Notes under the pieces: model-generated
What the model was told of the DNA's origin: nothing
Seen by the model: the letters and a program-made list of their open reading frames with translations, nothing else
Databases searched by the model: none
In this document: piece after piece, positions 25 through 11,805 of the stretch
How positions within the stretch are numbered: the first letter of the stretch is position 1
How the letters are laid out: every line of letters starts with the position of its first letter
Translations under genes and position numbers: made by a program
IMG/VR virus record: IMGVR_UViG_2681813225_000010
Location: 1 to 14,560 of that record
DNA: 14,560 bases
Strand: one strand, 5' to 3'
From: a virus
Taxonomy: Duplodnaviria > Heunggongvirae > Uroviricota > Caudoviricetes

Positions 25-3852
<3,828 letters not shown>

Positions 3853-4042
3853 GCTTACCTTCCCTGAACGAGCTAACATAAATGCGCCCTTTCTAGCACA
3901 GCGAAAAAATGTAAATCCTGATAGCAATATGATTGAAAATTAATAACTTTTCGTTAGGCAGTTTTGGGTGTGAGTTGCAAGAGGGGAGACTACTGAATAA
4001 CTCAAGTTTTATAATCGAGGGGAAAATGGTGATGGCGTTCAT

Positions 4043-4341: not shown

Positions 4342-5139
4342 TTAATGAACATTCGTCGCCGAAAACGAGTCTGTATCATTAGTGCGATGCAGTCTCTGCA
4401 AAGGATCTTGTTGATAAAATTGGCAGAAACGTTGCCACAATGAAGGGAAACGAGGAGCAAAAAGTTCTGGGGCGCTAAAGAAATATTCAGAAAGTACGGC
4501 AAAACATTCAGCAGGATCACTGGCAGCATAAGCATCAATGCTCGCCGCATTCTCGCCAACCAATTCGATTTCTTCCTGAATGTTGTTCATTGCAGCATGA
4601 AGATCGTGTTCCCAGCCAGCAACCTCACGCAACGGAATAAAGGGAACTCCGCTGGCGCGATCGCCGTTACGGGTGTCCAGCTTATGAGCGACTTCATGAA
4701 TAATCAGGTTAAAACCAGAAGCATCAAAAGAATCTTGTATATCCAACCAGTTCAAAACGATAGGCCCTTGCTGCCAGCTCTGACCTGACTGAACAATACG
4801 TTGGTTATGCACCAGACCGATATCGTCTTCCCATTCATCATCGACCACAAATGGCGCAGGATAAATTAAGACTTCATGAAAACCATCCAGCCATTCCAGT
4901 CCTAACTCCAGAACGGGTAGGCAAAATAGAAGTGCTATCCGGCAGCTTCTTAATGAATCCAGTTCAAAGCCCTGTAAAGGAACAAGCCGCTTTTGCTGTA
5001 AAAAACGTTCGGCAAGAGTGACTAATTTGCTTTGTTCCTGTTCCGTCAGACCCGTTAAAAGGGGGATCGATAGTGCTTCCTGCCAGGGAAGGGCAGTTTG
5101 ATGTGCTGATTCTTGTACTTTCCAGGGCCACTTAATCAT
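4342..5139 (-). CDS. mtfA: MtfA (Mlc titration factor A), zinc-dependent peptidase family, 265 aa
   Basis: ORF track 4342..5178(-). Start trimmed to the ATG giving [11 protein letters not shown] (complement 5137-5139). Contains the HEVAH zinc-binding motif ([10 protein letters not shown]). Sits between tRNA-Asn and serU as in E. coli. Confidence 0.9.
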
Positions 5140-5188
5140 CGTTTTGCTCGCAAACTCGTCACTTGAACAAAATTGCACGGACAGGGAC

Positions 5189-5322: not shown

Positions 5323-5367
5323 AAATTCAATCACTTATACATCATTAAGTCAGTGACAAAAATCACA

Positions 5368-5404
5368 CTTGGAATTACTTGGAATATTTTCTTGGAATAT
5401 TTTC
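5368..5404. repeat. Three direct CTTGGAAT repeats, the last two inside an exact 13-bp tandem repeat (TTGGAATATTTTC x2); candidate integrase arm-type binding sites in attL
   Basis: CTTGGAAT at 5368-5375, 5378-5385 and 5391-5398. TTGGAATATTTTC at 5379-5391 and 5392-5404. The first copy sits on the last integrase-fragment codons and the other two lie downstream of its stop, between that fragment and the tRNA 3' end. Confidence 0.3.
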
Positions 5405-5845
5405 AGGTAACGGGACATCAAGTGTCGGTGAAACTTTAACCTTCCTGTCATAGATTAGCACTTGCCCCTCGGTTTTGTGACCAGAGAAAAGTTGCTTATC
5501 CCGACTGCTTCCTTCATAGTCTGAAATTCCTTTCGCCTTCAGATCATGAAAGGTGAAGTCGGTTAAAATACCTGAAATTTTGCCTGCGCGATTTCTTGCT
5601 TCTACCCACATTTCGTTAAAGCCTTTGTACATATATCGGTTGCCGTATTGATTACTGATTACATAGGCGGATGTTGGTAACTGTTTTGCTTTTTCGATCG
5701 CCGCCTGTAATCGTGGACTCCATGCTTTTATCTGTTTTTTTCCTGTTTTCCCTTGCTGGATAAAGATTCCGTCGTTTCCAATCTGCTCCCATTTCAGCGA
5801 TAACACATCGGAAACCCTCGCTGCACACAGATAGGCAATTTCCAT
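5375..5845 (-). pseudogene. Tyrosine recombinase (phage integrase) C-terminal catalytic-domain fragment only (156 codons); N-terminal half absent
   Basis: The translation carries the C-terminal catalytic signature of lambda-family integrases (FTFHDLKAKG..., LFSGHKTEGQVLIYDRK with the presumed catalytic Tyr). It reads toward the tRNA 3' end. No upstream minus-strand ORF of 60 aa or more continues it (5846-6078), and full-length enzymes are roughly 330-400 aa. Confidence 0.75.
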
Positions 5846-6078
5846 TGCGATAAAAACAGGAAGAGGTGCAACGCTTAATACTGGTGTACGTCAGTTGCCT
5901 GCTGAGAGATGTCCTGCGATTGAACGAGCAACAAAAGGTGGTGTCCTGTGTGAAGAACTTCGTCCTGATGTTGATTGGACATACTTACGACGCTCGTCAT
6001 GTTATTCGCAGAATATGTCGATGAAGCAACCAAATGACGAAAACGATCATACCCGAAGCATCAAGAGGCAAATGATTC

Positions 6079-6504
6079 ATGAAAATCAAGCATGAACACA
6101 TCCGCATGGCGATGAATGCCTGGGCGCGTCCTGATGGCGAAAAAGTTCCAGCAGCTGGAATAACCCAGGCTTATTTTGAGTTGGGGATGACGTTTCCTGA
6201 ACTGTATGACGACAGCCATCCGGAAGCCCTGGCTCGCAATACCCAGAAAATTTTCCGCTGGGTAGAGAAAGACACCCCTGATGCAGTTGAAAAAATTCAG
6301 GCGTTGTTACCAGCGATCGAAAAGGCAATGCCACCTTTGCTGGTGGCCAGAATGCGCAGCCACAGTTCAGCTTATTTTCGGGAGCTGGTGGAGACGCGGG
6401 AGCGACTGGTGAGAGACGCTGATGATTTTGTCGCAGTGGCAATCGCCGGTTTCAATCAGATGAACCGTGGTGGCCCGGCAGGAAATGCTGTGGCAGTACA
6501 TTGA
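6079..6504 (+). CDS. YdaT-family prophage protein (141 aa)
   Basis: ORF track. N-terminus MKIKHEHI... is as I recall for YdaT-like proteins of Rac-type prophages. It sits immediately upstream of the O-like and DnaC-like genes (ydaT-ydaU-ydaV order). AAGAGG SD-like motif 11 nt upstream. Confidence 0.65.
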   Translation: MKIKHEHIRMAMNAWARPDGEKVPAAGITQAYFELGMTFPELYDDSHPEALARNTQKIFRWVEKDTPDAVEKIQALLPAIEKAMPPLLVARMRSHSSAYFRELVETRERLVRDADDFVAVAIAGFNQMNRGGPAGNAVAVH

Positions 6505-6575
6505 CTGACAATAGCCGTATCGAATCGCTTCCGGCAACTCGTGAGTAAAAAGATTCGGTATCAGAAGAGGTGAGT

Positions 6576-7658
6576 ATGGCTAACGCCTGGCTCAGATTAT
6601 GGCATGACATGCCAAATGACCCTAAGTGGCGAACAATTGCCAGGGTGTCAGGGCAGCCAATTGCAACAGTGATGGCAGTGTATATCCACCTCCTGGTGAG
6701 CGCGTCACGAAATGTCACGCGAGGTCACATTGATGTCACGACAGAAGATTTGGCAAGTGCGCTCGACGTGACAGAAGAGGTAATTGATTCAATTTTGCAG
6801 ACGATGCAGGGGCGGGTACTTGATGGTGATTTAATCACTGGATGGGAAAAACGCCAGGTGCTTAAAGAGGACAACGGCAATATTTCGCAAACCGCAAAAT
6901 CTCCTGCAGAGCGCAAGAGGGCGCAGCGAGAGAGGGAAAGAAAGCGGGAACAAAATGGCGATTGTCACGGCGCGTCACGAAATGTCACGCACATGTCACG
7001 ACGAGTCACGACAGATAAAGATACAGATAAAGATACAGATAAAGATACAGATCAAGAAGATCAAAACACTATGGTCCATGGCGTAAAAAACGCCACGAAC
7101 CAGGCAGGGGATGTTCAGACCGTCAATCCTGGTCAGCCAGCAGGCACGACACCGGAAGCCGATTCAGCGTATGCGCTGAAAGCCGATTCGGGCGCTGTGC
7201 AGCAGGTGATGACCGCAAGGCCGGAGCAATCACACCAACTGCAGCAGCCTGAAGCCGATTCCGCCATTCAGCGGGAAGCCGATCGGGTAGTCCCGGAAAA
7301 CACCGGGCAGCCTGTGGGACGAGTGGATTATCCGGATGTGTTCGAACAGGTCTGGCGGGAATACCCGTTGCGTGCTGGGGCAAACCCGAAGAAATCCGCT
7401 TTCAGTGCCTGGAAGGCCAGATTACGCGAGGGGGTGCCACCAGAGGCCATACTGGATGGTGTGAGGCGTTACGCAAGATACCTGGCGGCTACCGGGAAAA
7501 CGGGAACGGAATTTGTTCAGCGAGCGACGACGTTTTTTGGGCCGGACCGGAATTTTGAAAACCCCTGGTTGCTCCCGGTAAGCGGCACGAACAACCAGCG
7601 TTGTGTGAATCATATTTCTGAACCGGATACCGAAATTCCGCCGGGATTCAGGGGGTGA
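6576..7658 (+). CDS. Phage replication initiation protein (lambda O-like / YdaU-like) containing the replication origin
   Basis: ORF track 6570..7658. I favour the ATG at 6576 (MANAWLRLWHD...), which has AGAAGAGG upstream. The gene contains two iteron arrays and a tandem repeat (see repeat features), like lambda ori inside O. It directly precedes a DnaC-like loader gene. Confidence 0.8.
   Translation: MANAWLRLWHDMPNDPKWRTIARVSGQPIATVMAVYIHLLVSASRNVTRGHIDVTTEDLASALDVTEEVIDSILQTMQGRVLDGDLITGWEKRQVLKEDNGNISQTAKSPAERKRAQRERERKREQNGDCHGASRNVTHMSRRVTTDKDTDKDTDKDTDQEDQNTMVHGVKNATNQAGDVQTVNPGQPAGTTPEADSAYALKADSGAVQQVMTARPEQSHQLQQPEADSAIQREADRVVPENTGQPVGRVDYPDVFEQVWREYPLRAGANPKKSAFSAWKARLREGVPPEAILDGVRRYARYLAATGKTGTEFVQRATTFFGPDRNFENPWLLPVSGTNNQRCVNHISEPDTEIPPGFRG
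6701..6745. repeat. Iteron array 1: four GTCAC(G) repeats phased at 10-11 bp
   Basis: GTCAC at 6704, 6714, 6724 and 6735. The 20-mer CGCGTCACGAAATGTCACGC (6701-6720) recurs exactly at 6971-6990. Confidence 0.6.
6961..7052. repeat. Iteron array 2 (five GTCAC repeats) followed by an A+T-rich 12-bp tandem repeat (ACAGATAAAGAT x3.5); candidate ori core
   Basis: GTCAC at 6964, 6974, 6984, 6995 and 7005 (spacing 10, 10, 11, 10). Then ACAGATAAAGAT at 7011-7022, 7023-7034 and 7035-7046, plus a partial copy to 7052. In the protein this region reads DKDTDKDTDKDTD. Confidence 0.6.
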
Positions 7659-7664
7659 TGTGGC

Positions 7665-8411
7665 ATGAAAAACATTGCGGCAGCCGGGGTTCTTGAACGT
7701 ATTCGCAGACTTGCACCACAGGCGTCGGTTCCACCGTACCGGACGGTGGAGGAGTGGCGGGAATGGCAACTTGTTGAAGGACGAAAACGCAGCGAGGAGA
7801 TTAACCGCCAGAATCACCAGTTGCGGGTGGAAAAAATCCTGAATCGTTCGGGCATCCAGCCTCTGCACAGCAAATGCTCGTTTGCGAATTATCAGGTGCA
7901 GAACGACGGGCAAAAATACGCGCTGAGCCAGGCCAAATCCATAGCTGACGAACTGATGACCGGGTGCACGAATTTTGTGTTCAGCGGTAAAACCGGCACC
8001 GGGAAAAATCACCTTGCAGCGGCGATGGGTAACCGGCTGATGGCGAAGGGGCGCAGCGTGATTATCGTCACCGTGTCTGATGTCATGAGCGTGTTGCATG
8101 ACAGCTACGACAACGGCAAATCCGGGGAAAAATTTTTACAGGAGCTTTGCAGTGTTGATTTGCTGGTCCTGGATGAAATAGGCGTTCAGCGGGAGACGAA
8201 AAACGAGCAGGTGGTATTACACCAGATAATTGATCGCCGGACAGCATCACTGTGCAGTGTCGGGATGTTAACAAACCTGAATCATGCCGCAATGAGCACG
8301 CTTCTTGGTGAGAGGATTATGGACCGCATGACCATGAACGGTGGTCGGTGGGTGACGTTTAACTGGGATAGCTGGCGTCCAAATGTCAGCAATCAGAGGG
8401 TTGTGAAGTAA
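7665..8411 (+). CDS. DnaC-like replicative helicase loader (AAA+ ATPase, IstB/DnaC family; YdaV-like)
   Basis: Walker A FSGKTGTGKNHLAAAMG and Walker B LLVLDEIG. The ATG lies 6 nt after the O-like stop, with AGGGGGTGA upstream. Confidence 0.85.
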   Translation: MKNIAAAGVLERIRRLAPQASVPPYRTVEEWREWQLVEGRKRSEEINRQNHQLRVEKILNRSGIQPLHSKCSFANYQVQNDGQKYALSQAKSIADELMTGCTNFVFSGKTGTGKNHLAAAMGNRLMAKGRSVIIVTVSDVMSVLHDSYDNGKSGEKFLQELCSVDLLVLDEIGVQRETKNEQVVLHQIIDRRTASLCSVGMLTNLNHAAMSTLLGERIMDRMTMNGGRWVTFNWDSWRPNVSNQRVVK

Positions 8412-11460: not shown

Positions 11461-11805
11461 ATGAAAAAGGTATTGATTGCAGCACTTATTTCCGGTGTGT
11501 CTTTTGGCGCTTTTGCACAGCAGGGTGGTTTCCAGGGGCCAGAAGCAGAGCGTTCAACAGTAGCGCAGGCAAAAGAACTGAAGGATGATGCATGGGTTAT
11601 CCTTGAAGGGAGCATCGTTAAAAAAGTGGGTGATGAACGTTATGAGTTTCGTGACAATAGCGGGACAATTGTCACGGATATTGATGACAGCGTATGGGCC
11701 GGGCAGAATGTTTCTCCGAAAGACAAAGTAAGAATTGAGGGTGAAATTGATAAAGACCTGAGCAGTGTTGAAGTTGATGTAAAGGCACTGAAATTATTAA
11801 AGTAA
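11461..11805 (+). CDS. YgiW/YdeI-family (BOF, bacterial OB-fold, DUF388) periplasmic protein with signal peptide
   Basis: Signal peptide MKKVLIAALISGVSFGAFAQQ and clear similarity to YgiW-type proteins (QGGFQGP..., TIVTDIDD..., VEVDVK). AAAGAGGA lies 6 nt upstream. Followed by its own terminator. Confidence 0.85.
   Translation: MKKVLIAALISGVSFGAFAQQGGFQGPEAERSTVAQAKELKDDAWVILEGSIVKKVGDERYEFRDNSGTIVTDIDDSVWAGQNVSPKDKVRIEGEIDKDLSSVEVDVKALKLLK

What the first reader, a model, noticed from the sequence alone, without database searches (positions are those of the whole stretch)
6701..7052. Two iteron arrays plus an A+T-rich tandem repeat inside the O-like gene: embedded origin
GTCAC(G) repeats occur at helical phasing (10-11 bp) in two arrays about 270 bp apart (4 and 5 copies), which share an exact 20-mer. 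The second array runs straight into ACAGATAAAGAT x3.5. Iterons followed by an A+T-rich unwinding element inside the initiator gene is the lambda ori architecture. A duplicated array is less usual and may reflect repeat expansion or two initiator-binding clusters.
Basis: partly seen in the sequence, partly recalled or inferred. Interest (0 to 1): 0.5.

Follow-up and report, generated by a model that had tools for sequence, protein, structure and literature searches.

The report
Two-part replication origin inside prophage initiator gene
The repeats are real and are very probably the replication origin of an E. coli prophage, written inside the gene for its own initiator protein; the unexpected part is that the two-cluster layout recurs in related elements from many proteobacteria.

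Summary
GTCAC(G) occurs on the + strand at 6704/6714/6724/6735 and at 6964/6974/6984/6995/7005. The second array runs straight into ACAGATAAAGAT x3.9 (7011-7057). All of it lies inside a 360-aa replication initiator gene (6576-7658), upstream of a DnaC-like loader gene.

The repeats are selected as DNA, not as peptide:
- The hexamers fall in all three reading frames.
- In 20 diverged relatives (42-68% GC) synonymous codons are nearly fixed inside the hexamers (0.975 against 0.54 elsewhere).
- The junction GTCACnnnAGATAAAGA is conserved.
- The A-rich repeat is the second least stable 51-mer in the 14.5-kb window.

The duplicated array is not a recent expansion. About 40 relatives from gamma-, beta- and alpha-proteobacteria carry both arrays, 252±31 bp apart, usually with the same core in both (GTCACG, GTAACG or CGAACGC). 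Two or three other N-terminal domain types joined to the same C-terminal module carry their own iterons in the same two-array layout.

The arrays travel with the N-terminal domain while the helicase partner varies. The initiator is not a lambda O homologue. The nearest studied analogue is SPP1 oriL in gene 38.

Verdict: an embedded, bipartite origin, a new variant of a known kind. No experiment has tested it.

The parts
6576..7658 (+). Replication initiator gene (360 aa). It has an N-terminal helix-turn-helix-like (HTH) DNA-binding domain (about aa 1-127), a disordered linker (aa 128-247) and a C-terminal helical domain (aa 250-336).
   Evidence: phrog_3729 'replication initiation protein', E 1e-255. 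Weaker matches to 'replisome organizer' PHROGs (phrog_4880, E 1.6e-7). No Pfam hit above threshold. Phage_rep_org_N aligns over its full length only at sub-threshold scores: PF09681 E 0.13, TIGR01714 E 0.016. AF2 model and domain limits. NCBI names close relatives 'phage replisome organizer'.
6704..6740 (+). Iteron array 1: four GTCAC(G) cores at 6704, 6714, 6724 and 6735 (10/10/11-bp phase). It encodes the loop aa 44-55 just before the HTH.
   Evidence: Synonymous codons are nearly fixed inside the hexamers in 20 diverged loci (top-codon fraction 0.975 against 0.54 elsewhere, Mann-Whitney p 6e-6).
6767..6772 (-). A single inverted iteron copy (CGTGAC on the + strand), 32 bp downstream of array 1.
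   Evidence: Present at the same gene position (nt 192-193) in many relatives. Val65 is GTG in all 16 of the 20 loci that have Val there.
6964..7010 (+). Iteron array 2: five GTCACG cores at 6964, 6974, 6984, 6995 and 7005. This is the proposed origin-proximal initiator-binding cluster.
   Evidence: Three to five copies in 10-bp phase are conserved in the 20 non-redundant GTCAC-class loci, while the spacers and the encoded peptide vary and the hexamers fall in all three frames.
7011..7065 (+). A+T-rich tandem repeat with a purine-rich + strand (ACAGATAAAGAT x3.9, then CAAGAAGATCAAA). This is the proposed DNA unwinding element. It contains GATC at 7050 and 7059.
   Evidence: TRF. 7015-7065 is the second least stable 51-mer of the 14.5-kb window (z +3.45). 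In 40 relatives the 60 nt after array 2 are 62% A+T against 44% for the gene (Wilcoxon p 4e-12). AGATAAAGATAAAGA is kept even in genes of 65-68% GC. GATC pair. Copy number varies between 4 and 9 hexamer units among near-identical prophages.
7072..7102 (.). Inverted repeat GGTCCATGGCG-TAAAAAA-CGCCACGAACC just beyond the A-rich element. It is a possible third origin element, or a terminator for antisense transcription.
   Evidence: Flagged as terminator-like on the minus strand. Present in all 8 loci that carry this C-terminal module, with T-A/C-G changes that keep pairing while the encoded residues change. The sample is small.
7665..8411 (+). DnaC/IstB-like AAA+ helicase loader gene, the presumed partner of the initiator's C-terminal domain.
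   Evidence: PF01695, E 2.8e-19. NF009043, E 5e-153. phrog_50 'DnaC-like helicase loader'.
5895..6504 (+). Upstream YdaS-like (Cro-type) and YdaT/CII-like regulator genes in the same orientation. Early rightward transcription would run through the origin.
   Evidence: PF15943 and PF06254; phrog_35 and phrog_163. The same gene order (repressor, cro-like, ydaT-like, initiator) occurs in phage Tritos and in L140 and L145-L147.

Best explanation
Region 6700-7105 is the prophage's origin of replication, embedded in the 5' half of its own initiator gene.

Shown by sequence comparison:
- The GTCACG cores are cis-acting DNA elements under strong purifying selection.
- They are inherited together with the initiator's N-terminal domain.
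- They are arranged as two clusters about 250 bp apart.
- The second cluster abuts, at a conserved distance, an A+T-rich, strand-asymmetric and thermodynamically weak repeat.

Inferred mechanism:
- Monomers of the N-terminal HTH-like domain bind the cores head to tail on one face of the helix (10-11-bp phase).
- The array 2 complex strains and melts the adjacent (AGATAA)n element.
- The C-terminal domain recruits the DnaC-like loader (7665-8411) with host DnaB onto the opened strands.
- Array 1 (four direct copies plus one inverted) is a second binding cluster. It either joins array 2 in one higher-order looped or wrapped complex, or tunes initiation or initiator expression.

The elements sit in the parts of the coding sequence with the least protein constraint: a surface loop and a disordered linker.
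For: (1) The repeats are non-random and in helical phase.
(2) Selection acts on the DNA. The hexamers occupy all three reading frames. In 20 non-redundant relatives (mean 69% nt identity, 42-68% GC) codons inside the array 1 hexamers are nearly fixed (for example Val47 GTC 20/20, Thr48 ACG 20/20, Gly50 GGT 20/20). Equally conserved residues elsewhere use 3-6 codons.
(3) Array 2 is conserved in a linker whose peptide otherwise varies, with the junction GTCACnnnAGATAAAGA kept.
(4) The A-rich element is the second least stable 51-mer of the window. In 40 loci it is A+T-enriched relative to its gene, including high-GC hosts.
(5) Core and domain change together. GTCACG, GTAACG(C) and CGAACGC lineages have the same core in both arrays: 36 of 48 by independent strict calling, most of the remainder being register shifts of one longer core. 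Random pairing gives 15.6 on average.
(6) The pieces recombine as modules. The N-terminal domain and both arrays occur with a DnaC-like loader, a lambda-P-like loader, a DnaB-family helicase, or no adjacent loader. The recombination breakpoint lies at 7033-7063, in the A-rich repeat.
(7) Other N-terminal domain types fused to the same C-terminal module carry different iterons in the same layout: AAGGGGCTT at 11 bp and AAGCCTT at 12 bp, in two arrays 251-256 bp apart, followed by a purine-rich repeat.
(8) Deposited phage genomes such as Tritos and Evi carry the gene at about 98% identity. In Tritos the 4+5 arrays were checked and are identical.
(9) SPP1 oriL, shown experimentally, has the same array 2 plus DUE layout at the domain linker of gene 38 (PMC5737612, PMC6316719; sequence checked).
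Against: Nothing here shows protein binding, unwinding or origin activity. All the evidence is comparative.

The N-terminal domain could not be placed confidently. The Foldseek search of the AF2 model found nothing significant. The hhalign comparison with G38P was negative. Pfam and TIGRFAM matches are sub-threshold.

DNA-level selection on array 1 would fit an operator or another cis-element equally well.

No DnaA box lies in or near the gene, although lambda and SPP1 origins do not need one.

This particular prophage looks degraded: the integrase is truncated and no repressor gene lies between it and the ydaS-like gene. Its origin may therefore never fire in this strain.
Confidence: 0.8

Rival explanations
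1. Only array 2 with the A-rich repeat is the origin. Array 1 is a regulatory site where the initiator binds to repress or block transcription and translation of its own gene, or to pair ('handcuff') with array 2 and limit initiation. This would resemble the second iteron arrays of P1 (incA) and F (incC).
For: SPP1 oriL has the array 2 plus DUE arrangement but no detectable array 1. Lambda needs only the iterons nearest its A+T-rich region in vitro (as discussed in PMC7466680). Array 1 lies about 130 nt into the coding sequence with an inverted copy nearby. In POCJ13 (L004) array 1 is inverted relative to array 2, so its orientation is not fixed.
Against: The array spacing is similar (252±31 bp within the family, 251-256 bp in two other N-terminal domain types), and both arrays are kept almost everywhere. 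This suggests they work as one unit. Sequence alone cannot separate the two models.
Confidence: 0.3
2. The repeats reflect peptide repeats (ASRNVT..., TDKD...) selected at the protein level, or plain slippage or duplication, with no function as DNA.
For: The shared 21-mer is in frame and encodes ASRNVT twice. The 12-bp repeat encodes (TDKD)n in a linker. Its copy number varies among close relatives as slippage would produce.
Against: The 10-11-bp period puts the hexamers in all three frames. Synonymous positions are frozen only inside the hexamers. GAT-AAA codons persist in genes of 65-68% GC. The arrays are conserved across three proteobacterial classes.
Confidence: 0.03
3. The arrays are binding sites for a host factor or another phage protein, for example the upstream YdaT/CII-like regulator, and not for the initiator.
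For: In the closest E. coli mosaics the ydaT-like gene and the N-terminal half of the initiator are inherited as one block (query positions 1-634).
Against: In the distant relatives sampled that keep both arrays, the upstream proteins tested gave no Pfam match, YdaT included. Within E. coli and Shigella, three different iteron sequences go with different N-terminal domain types. This argues against a shared host factor.
Confidence: 0.05

Closest known systems
Bacillus phage SPP1 oriL in gene 38 (replisome organizer G38P)
   Same: The origin is embedded in the initiator gene. Short direct repeats lie at the end of the N-terminal DNA-binding domain and are followed at once by an A+T-rich, purine-strand-biased tandem repeat that acts as the DUE (PMC5737612, PMC6316719; SPP1 sequence read). 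The initiator has a DNA-binding N-terminal domain and a C-terminal domain that engages a helicase loader. PHROG and NCBI naming place the window protein among 'replisome organizers'.
   Different: No significant direct similarity to G38P (BLASTP E 0.23; hhalign probability below 1%). The SPP1 boxes differ in sequence and spacing. SPP1 gene 38 has no detectable upstream array inside the N-terminal domain coding region. The partner here is a DnaC/IstB-type AAA+ loader, not a G39P-type loader. The hosts are proteobacteria.
Lambda ori within gene O, and the Stx-phage variants with six iterons
   Same: The origin sits in the middle of the initiator gene, at the boundary between the origin-binding N-terminal half and the loader-binding C-terminal half. 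Iterons are followed by an A+T-rich tract (PMC7466680), and by a palindrome further right (own recollection of the lambda literature, not checked in the papers read here). The N-terminal half and the origin recombine as a unit separately from the C-terminal half, which is classical lambdoid behaviour. Transcription from the early rightward operon runs through it.
   Different: No Phage_rep_O domain. The iterons are 6-bp cores at 10-11 bp rather than about 19-bp dyad-symmetric repeats. There are two arrays about 260 bp apart rather than one. In this window the loader is DnaC-like, although relatives L001 and L002 pair the same N-terminal domain with a lambda-P-like protein.
Replicons with two separate initiator-binding clusters (P1 incC/incA, F ori2/incC, satellite phage P4 ori/crr)
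   Same: Two clusters of the same iteron are bound by one initiator. One cluster lies next to the unwinding region and the other at a distance. This rests on established knowledge and was not tested here.
   Different: Those clusters flank the initiator gene or lie kilobases away, use about 19-22-bp (P1, F) or 8-bp (P4) repeats, and involve unrelated initiators. Here both clusters are inside the coding sequence, about 250 bp apart.

Membership tests
Lambdoid O/ori-lambda family | The initiator carries the lambda O N-terminal origin-binding domain (Pfam Phage_rep_O, PF04492). | tested here: not met
   Pfam scans at E <= 0.01 and E <= 10 returned no Phage_rep_O match.
Lambdoid O/ori-lambda family | The origin lies inside the initiator gene at the junction of the N- and C-terminal domains, with iterons followed by an A+T-rich tract. 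| tested here: met
   Array 2 (6964-7010) and the A-rich repeat (7011-7065) lie at aa 130-163, the start of the disordered linker. The mosaic breakpoint is at 7033-7063.
Lambdoid O/ori-lambda family | Four or more iterons of about 19 bp with internal dyad symmetry, in a single array. | tested here: not met
   The cores are 6 bp, direct, and at 10-11 bp spacing, in two arrays.
SPP1 G38P-type replisome organizer with embedded oriL | N-terminal domain of the Phage_rep_org_N family (PF09681 / TIGR01714). | tested here: inconclusive
   Alignments cover the full model length but score below threshold: PF09681 E 0.13 (12.7 bits against a cut-off of 23.3) and TIGR01714 E 0.016 (15.4 against 49.8). PHROG 'replisome organizer' families match at E 1.6e-7 and 1.3e-5. 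hhalign against G38P was negative. The Foldseek search was uninformative.
SPP1 G38P-type replisome organizer with embedded oriL | Direct repeats inside the initiator gene, immediately followed by an A+T-rich DUE. | tested here: met
   Window. The SPP1 gene 38 sequence shows the same order, GAAACGACA/GAAAAAGACAC repeats followed by AACAATGAT x3. PMC5737612 describes the function.
SPP1 G38P-type replisome organizer with embedded oriL | The initiator binds the repeats specifically and the fragment supports initiator-dependent theta replication. | not testable with these tools
   Needs EMSA or footprinting and a plasmid replication assay.
Iteron-regulated plasmid-type origins (P1/F class) | DnaA box or boxes next to iterons of about 19-22 bp. 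| tested here: not met
   No TTATCCACA match with one mismatch or fewer between 4418 and 9013. The iteron cores are 6 bp at 10-11 bp spacing.
Iteron-regulated plasmid-type origins (P1/F class) | A second iteron array exerts negative control by handcuffing. | not testable with these tools
   A second array exists (6704-6740), but its effect on initiation cannot be read from sequence.

The most novel reading that the evidence does not exclude
The two arrays form an obligate bipartite origin that follows a general design rule for a large class of proteobacterial prophage initiators, whatever the sequence family of the N-terminal domain. One initiator-binding cluster is written into the coding sequence of the DNA-binding domain itself. 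A second lies about 250 bp downstream at the domain linker. The two are brought together by looping or wrapping about 24 helical turns of DNA to open the adjacent (AGATAA)n element. The binding sites and the protein segment they encode would then be forced to evolve together.
Probability: 0.3. Interest if true: 0.6.

Novelty: new variant of a known kind. Interest (0 to 1): 0.45.

Why it matters
This initiator gene matches DNA in about 47% of complete E. coli genomes (2562 of 5426; 1647 of them with at least 80% of the query), and also in deposited phage genomes. In the literature I could search I found no description of its origin. A defined origin gives a testable handle on which 'cryptic' prophages can still replicate after induction, which bears on the amplification of prophage-borne virulence genes. 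It also gives a simple sequence rule for locating origins in similar modules: two phased arrays of the same core about 250 bp apart, the second abutting a purine-rich A+T repeat. The family is a clean natural example of overlapping codes, where synonymous sites are frozen by a DNA-binding requirement and the iteron sequence switches in step in both arrays. That makes it a useful system for studying how initiator and origin specificity evolve together.

Tried and rejected
- **Fold search.** The AF2 model of the whole protein has mean pLDDT 60; the N-terminal domain is moderate and the C-terminal domain good. Foldseek against the PDB found nothing with E below 1, only faint MarR-like and sigma-region-4-like HTH resemblances. 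The fold class of the N-terminal domain is therefore unsettled.
- **Link to G38P.** A profile-sequence comparison of the family alignment with SPP1 G38P was negative. The PDB sequence search gave only E of about 0.8 to DnaT.
- **Known RNA families.** An Rfam scan of 5800-7800 found no credible family.
- **Promoters.** The sigma-70 scan gave no more sites than shuffled sequence.
- **DnaA boxes.** None in or near the gene.
- **Second origin.** I looked for a second, SPP1-oriR-like GTCACG cluster elsewhere in the window. There is only a pair at 11650/11671, not an array.
- **Literature.** Four full-text searches found descriptions of lambda/Stx and SPP1 origins but none of this family. The Weigel & Seitz 2006 review of phage replication modules was not available and may contain predictions for such modules.
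- **Hypotheses rejected.** Peptide-level repeats, a recent duplication, and host-factor sites.
- **Not attempted.** I did not try to link iteron core changes to specific HTH residues, because by eye the alignment gave no clear signal.

Full report
**1. The observation**

- Array 1: GTCAC(G) on the + strand at 6704, 6714, 6724 and 6735.
- Array 2: GTCACG at 6964, 6974, 6984, 6995 and 7005.
- One inverted copy lies at 6767-6772.
- The arrays share an exact 21-mer, GCGCGTCACGAAATGTCACGC, at 6700 and 6970.
- Tandem Repeats Finder reports ACAGATAAAGAT x3.9 at 7011-7057, starting one base after the last hexamer.

This is not chance. GTCACG occurs 19 times in the window against 6.8 expected, and 0 of 200 shuffles reach 19. 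A run of 5 or more GTCAC within 45 nt never arose in 2000 Markov-1 simulations, and a run of 4 or more arose once.

**2. Gene context**

All elements lie inside ORF 6576-7658 (+), 360 aa.
- The protein matches phrog_3729 'replication initiation protein' (E 1e-255). It also matches 'replisome organizer' and 'DnaD-like helicase loader' PHROGs more weakly.
- It has no Pfam domain above threshold and no lambda O domain.
- Phage_rep_org_N aligns over its whole length only at sub-threshold scores: PF09681 E 0.13, TIGR01714 E 0.016.
- The next gene, 7665-8411, is a DnaC/IstB-type AAA+ loader.
- Upstream are YdaS-like (Cro-type) and YdaT/CII-like genes. Further left are a truncated integrase, mtfA and a 1300-aa inverse autotransporter. 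The window is therefore an E. coli prophage, apparently decayed on its left side.
- The initiator gene is about 98% identical in phage genome records such as Tritos and Evi. It matches DNA in 2562 of 5426 complete E. coli genomes. Tritos has the same 4+5 arrays.

**3. The repeats are DNA elements, not peptide repeats**

The 10-11-bp period puts the hexamers in all three reading frames.

I collected 55 genome loci that encode relatives of the N-terminal domain (motif WLRLWHDMPNDPKWRTIAR) from gamma-, beta- and alpha-proteobacteria. I then compared codon use in 20 non-redundant GTCAC-class genes, with mean nucleotide identity 69% and GC 42-68%.
- Invariant residues elsewhere use 3-6 synonymous codons.
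- Inside the array 1 hexamers the codon is nearly fixed: Ser44 TCA 19/20, Val47 GTC 20/20, Thr48 ACG 20/20, Gly50 GGT 20/20, His51 CAC 19/19, Val54 GTC 20/20, Thr55 ACG 19/20.
- The spacer codon Arg49 uses four codons.
- The mean top-codon fraction is 0.975 inside the hexamers against 0.54 outside (Mann-Whitney p 6e-6).

In array 2 the encoded peptide varies, but three to five GTCAC(G) cores in 10-bp phase are kept in all 20 genes. The junction GTCACnnnAGATAAAGA is conserved.

**4. The A-rich element**

7015-7065 is the second least stable 51-mer of the whole 14.5-kb window by nearest-neighbour energy (z +3.45). It is the least stable within this gene.

Across 40 relatives the 60 nt after array 2 are 62% A+T against 44% for the gene (Wilcoxon p 4e-12), and 68% purine on the coding strand. 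GAT-AAA codons persist even in genes of 65-68% GC.

Among 78 near-identical viral contigs with a recognisable gene start, 76 have the 4+5 arrays and two have 3+5. The A-rich repeat varies between 4 and 9 hexamer units.

Two GATC sites, at 7050 and 7059, sit in its distal end. Similar GATC-containing sequence recurs in enterobacterial relatives.

**5. The two-array layout is conserved**

About 40 of the 55 loci have both arrays. Array 1 lies at gene nt ~129-160 and array 2 at ~350-430, with starts 252±31 bp apart.

The core differs between lineages (GTCACG, GTAACG(C), CGAACGC) but is the same in both arrays of a gene.
- When the best phased 5-mer was called independently in each region, 36 of 48 genes matched strictly.
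- Most of the remaining 12 are register shifts of the same longer core.
- Random pairing gives 15.6 on average and at most 25.

Other N-terminal domain types fused to the same C-terminal module carry their own iterons in the same layout.
- L003 (E. coli 28RC1) has AAGGGGCTT at 11-bp phase in two arrays 256 bp apart. The second runs into AAGAACAGGAGCAGGAGA x2.
- L004 (Shigella phage POCJ13) has the same motif, with the two arrays inverted relative to each other.
- L140 has AAGCCTT/AAGGCTT at 12-bp phase in two arrays 251 bp apart, followed by CAGGAACAGGAA x2.
- The window's N-terminal domain shows no pairwise similarity to the L003 type (E 1.2). The L003 and L140 types are only marginally similar to each other (E 0.026).

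**6. The arrays travel with the N-terminal domain**

E. coli genome matches split at query positions 634/664, that is 7033-7063, inside the A-rich repeat.
- L001 and L002 have the same N-terminal domain and both GTCAC arrays. Array 1 is expanded to six copies by a 21-nt insertion. They carry a DnaT-like C-terminal half and a lambda-P-like partner.
- L003 and L004 have a different N-terminal domain and different iterons, with the window's C-terminal half and a DnaC-like partner.
- In distant relatives the downstream partner is a DnaB-family helicase (L018, L036, L051) or an IstB-like loader (L043). The upstream proteins tested have no Pfam match, YdaT included.
- Tritos has no adjacent loader.

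**7. Placement relative to the protein**

The AF2 model (mean pLDDT 60; N-terminal domain moderate, C-terminal domain above 90) places the elements as follows.
- Array 1 encodes a loop (aa 46-55) between helix 29-45 and the helix-turn-helix at 56-77. Relatives carry 7-14-aa insertions here, which are extra iterons.
- Array 2 and the A-rich repeat encode the start of a disordered linker (aa 128-247).

The origin elements therefore occupy the coding segments with the least structural constraint.

**8. A possible third element**

An inverted repeat lies at 7072-7102: GGTCCATGGCG-TAAAAAA-CGCCACGAACC. The scan flags it as terminator-like on the minus strand. It is present in all 8 loci with this C-terminal module. 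Its outer stem varies as GGTTCA/TGAACC, GGTCC/GGACC and GGTTC/GAACC, while the encoded residues change (TN, TD, SE). The sample is small, so this is only a lead.

**9. Comparison with known systems**

- **SPP1.** oriL is embedded in gene 38. It consists of direct repeats bound by G38P plus an adjacent A+T-rich DUE, and it supports reconstituted theta replication (PMC5737612, PMC6316719). Reading the SPP1 sequence shows the same order at the domain linker: GAAACGACA/GAAAAAGACAC repeats and then AACAATGAT x3. There is no upstream array in the N-terminal domain coding region.
- **Lambda and Stx phages.** Their origins lie in the middle of O, with 4-6 iterons and an A+T-rich tract (PMC7466680).
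- **This element.** It works like these origins. It is not a lambda O family member, because the defining domain and the iteron type were tested and not met. Its membership of the G38P family is inconclusive.

**10. Verdict**

This is an embedded phage origin with high probability (about 0.8). It is bipartite, and that layout is ancient and recurs across the family rather than being a local expansion. The role of array 1 is unresolved: it may be part of one looped initiation complex, or a control or autoregulatory site. No description of this family's origin was found in four literature searches. I rate it a new variant of a known kind, of moderate interest.

Noticed in passing
window 5375-5845 (-) and 5895-6095 (+): The integrase ORF is only a C-terminal fragment (156 aa). 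It lies about 50 bp from the ydaS-like gene, with no repressor gene or left-operon genes between them. Related prophages have a CI-like repressor there. This copy therefore looks like a deletion remnant beside mtfA (4342-5178) and an inverse-autotransporter gene (25-3927).
   Followed up: partly
window 5367-5404: Short tandem repeats (ACTTGGAATT x1.9 and CTTGGAATATTTT x2.1) lie at the end of the truncated integrase ORF. They could be an att or arm-site remnant.
   Followed up: no
window 7155-7283: GAAGCCGAT occurs four times, at 7155, 7179 (one mismatch), 7251 and 7275. The spacing is 24/72/24, in frame, and the copies encode PEADSA-like peptide repeats in the disordered linker. The same motif is repeated in L003, L004 and L140. 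With in-frame spacing, peptide-level and DNA-level selection cannot be told apart.
   Followed up: partly
window 7072-7102: A conserved inverted repeat lies just beyond the A-rich element. On the minus strand it is followed by a T-rich run and so looks like a terminator. Pair-preserving changes are seen across 8 loci. It recalls the palindrome to the right of the lambda origin's A+T-rich region (own recollection of the lambda literature).
   Followed up: partly
window 7033-7063: The recombination breakpoint between the N-terminal and C-terminal modules of the initiator, seen across E. coli genomes, falls within the A-rich tandem repeat. The repeat may therefore also act as a module-shuffling junction.
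   Followed up: partly
protein P0019 (302 aa, E. coli): This is a natural in-frame deletion variant of the initiator. It lacks most of array 2, the whole A-rich repeat and the hairpin region (sequence ...NGDCHGAS|PEADSAY...). It is a candidate natural origin deletion in some prophages.
   Followed up: no
L144 (phage Tritos) 3788-4210: In Tritos, and in most E. coli copies whose match ends at query position 1257, the initiator is followed by an unrelated 140-aa protein and not by a DnaC-like gene. The same initiator and origin are therefore used with and without a dedicated loader.
   Followed up: no
window 7050-7062, and relatives L140, L145, L146 and L148: A closely spaced GATC pair lies at the distal end of the A-rich element, in a prophage segment otherwise poor in GATC. 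Similar GATC-containing sequence recurs in enterobacterial relatives. This hints at Dam/SeqA control.
   Followed up: partly
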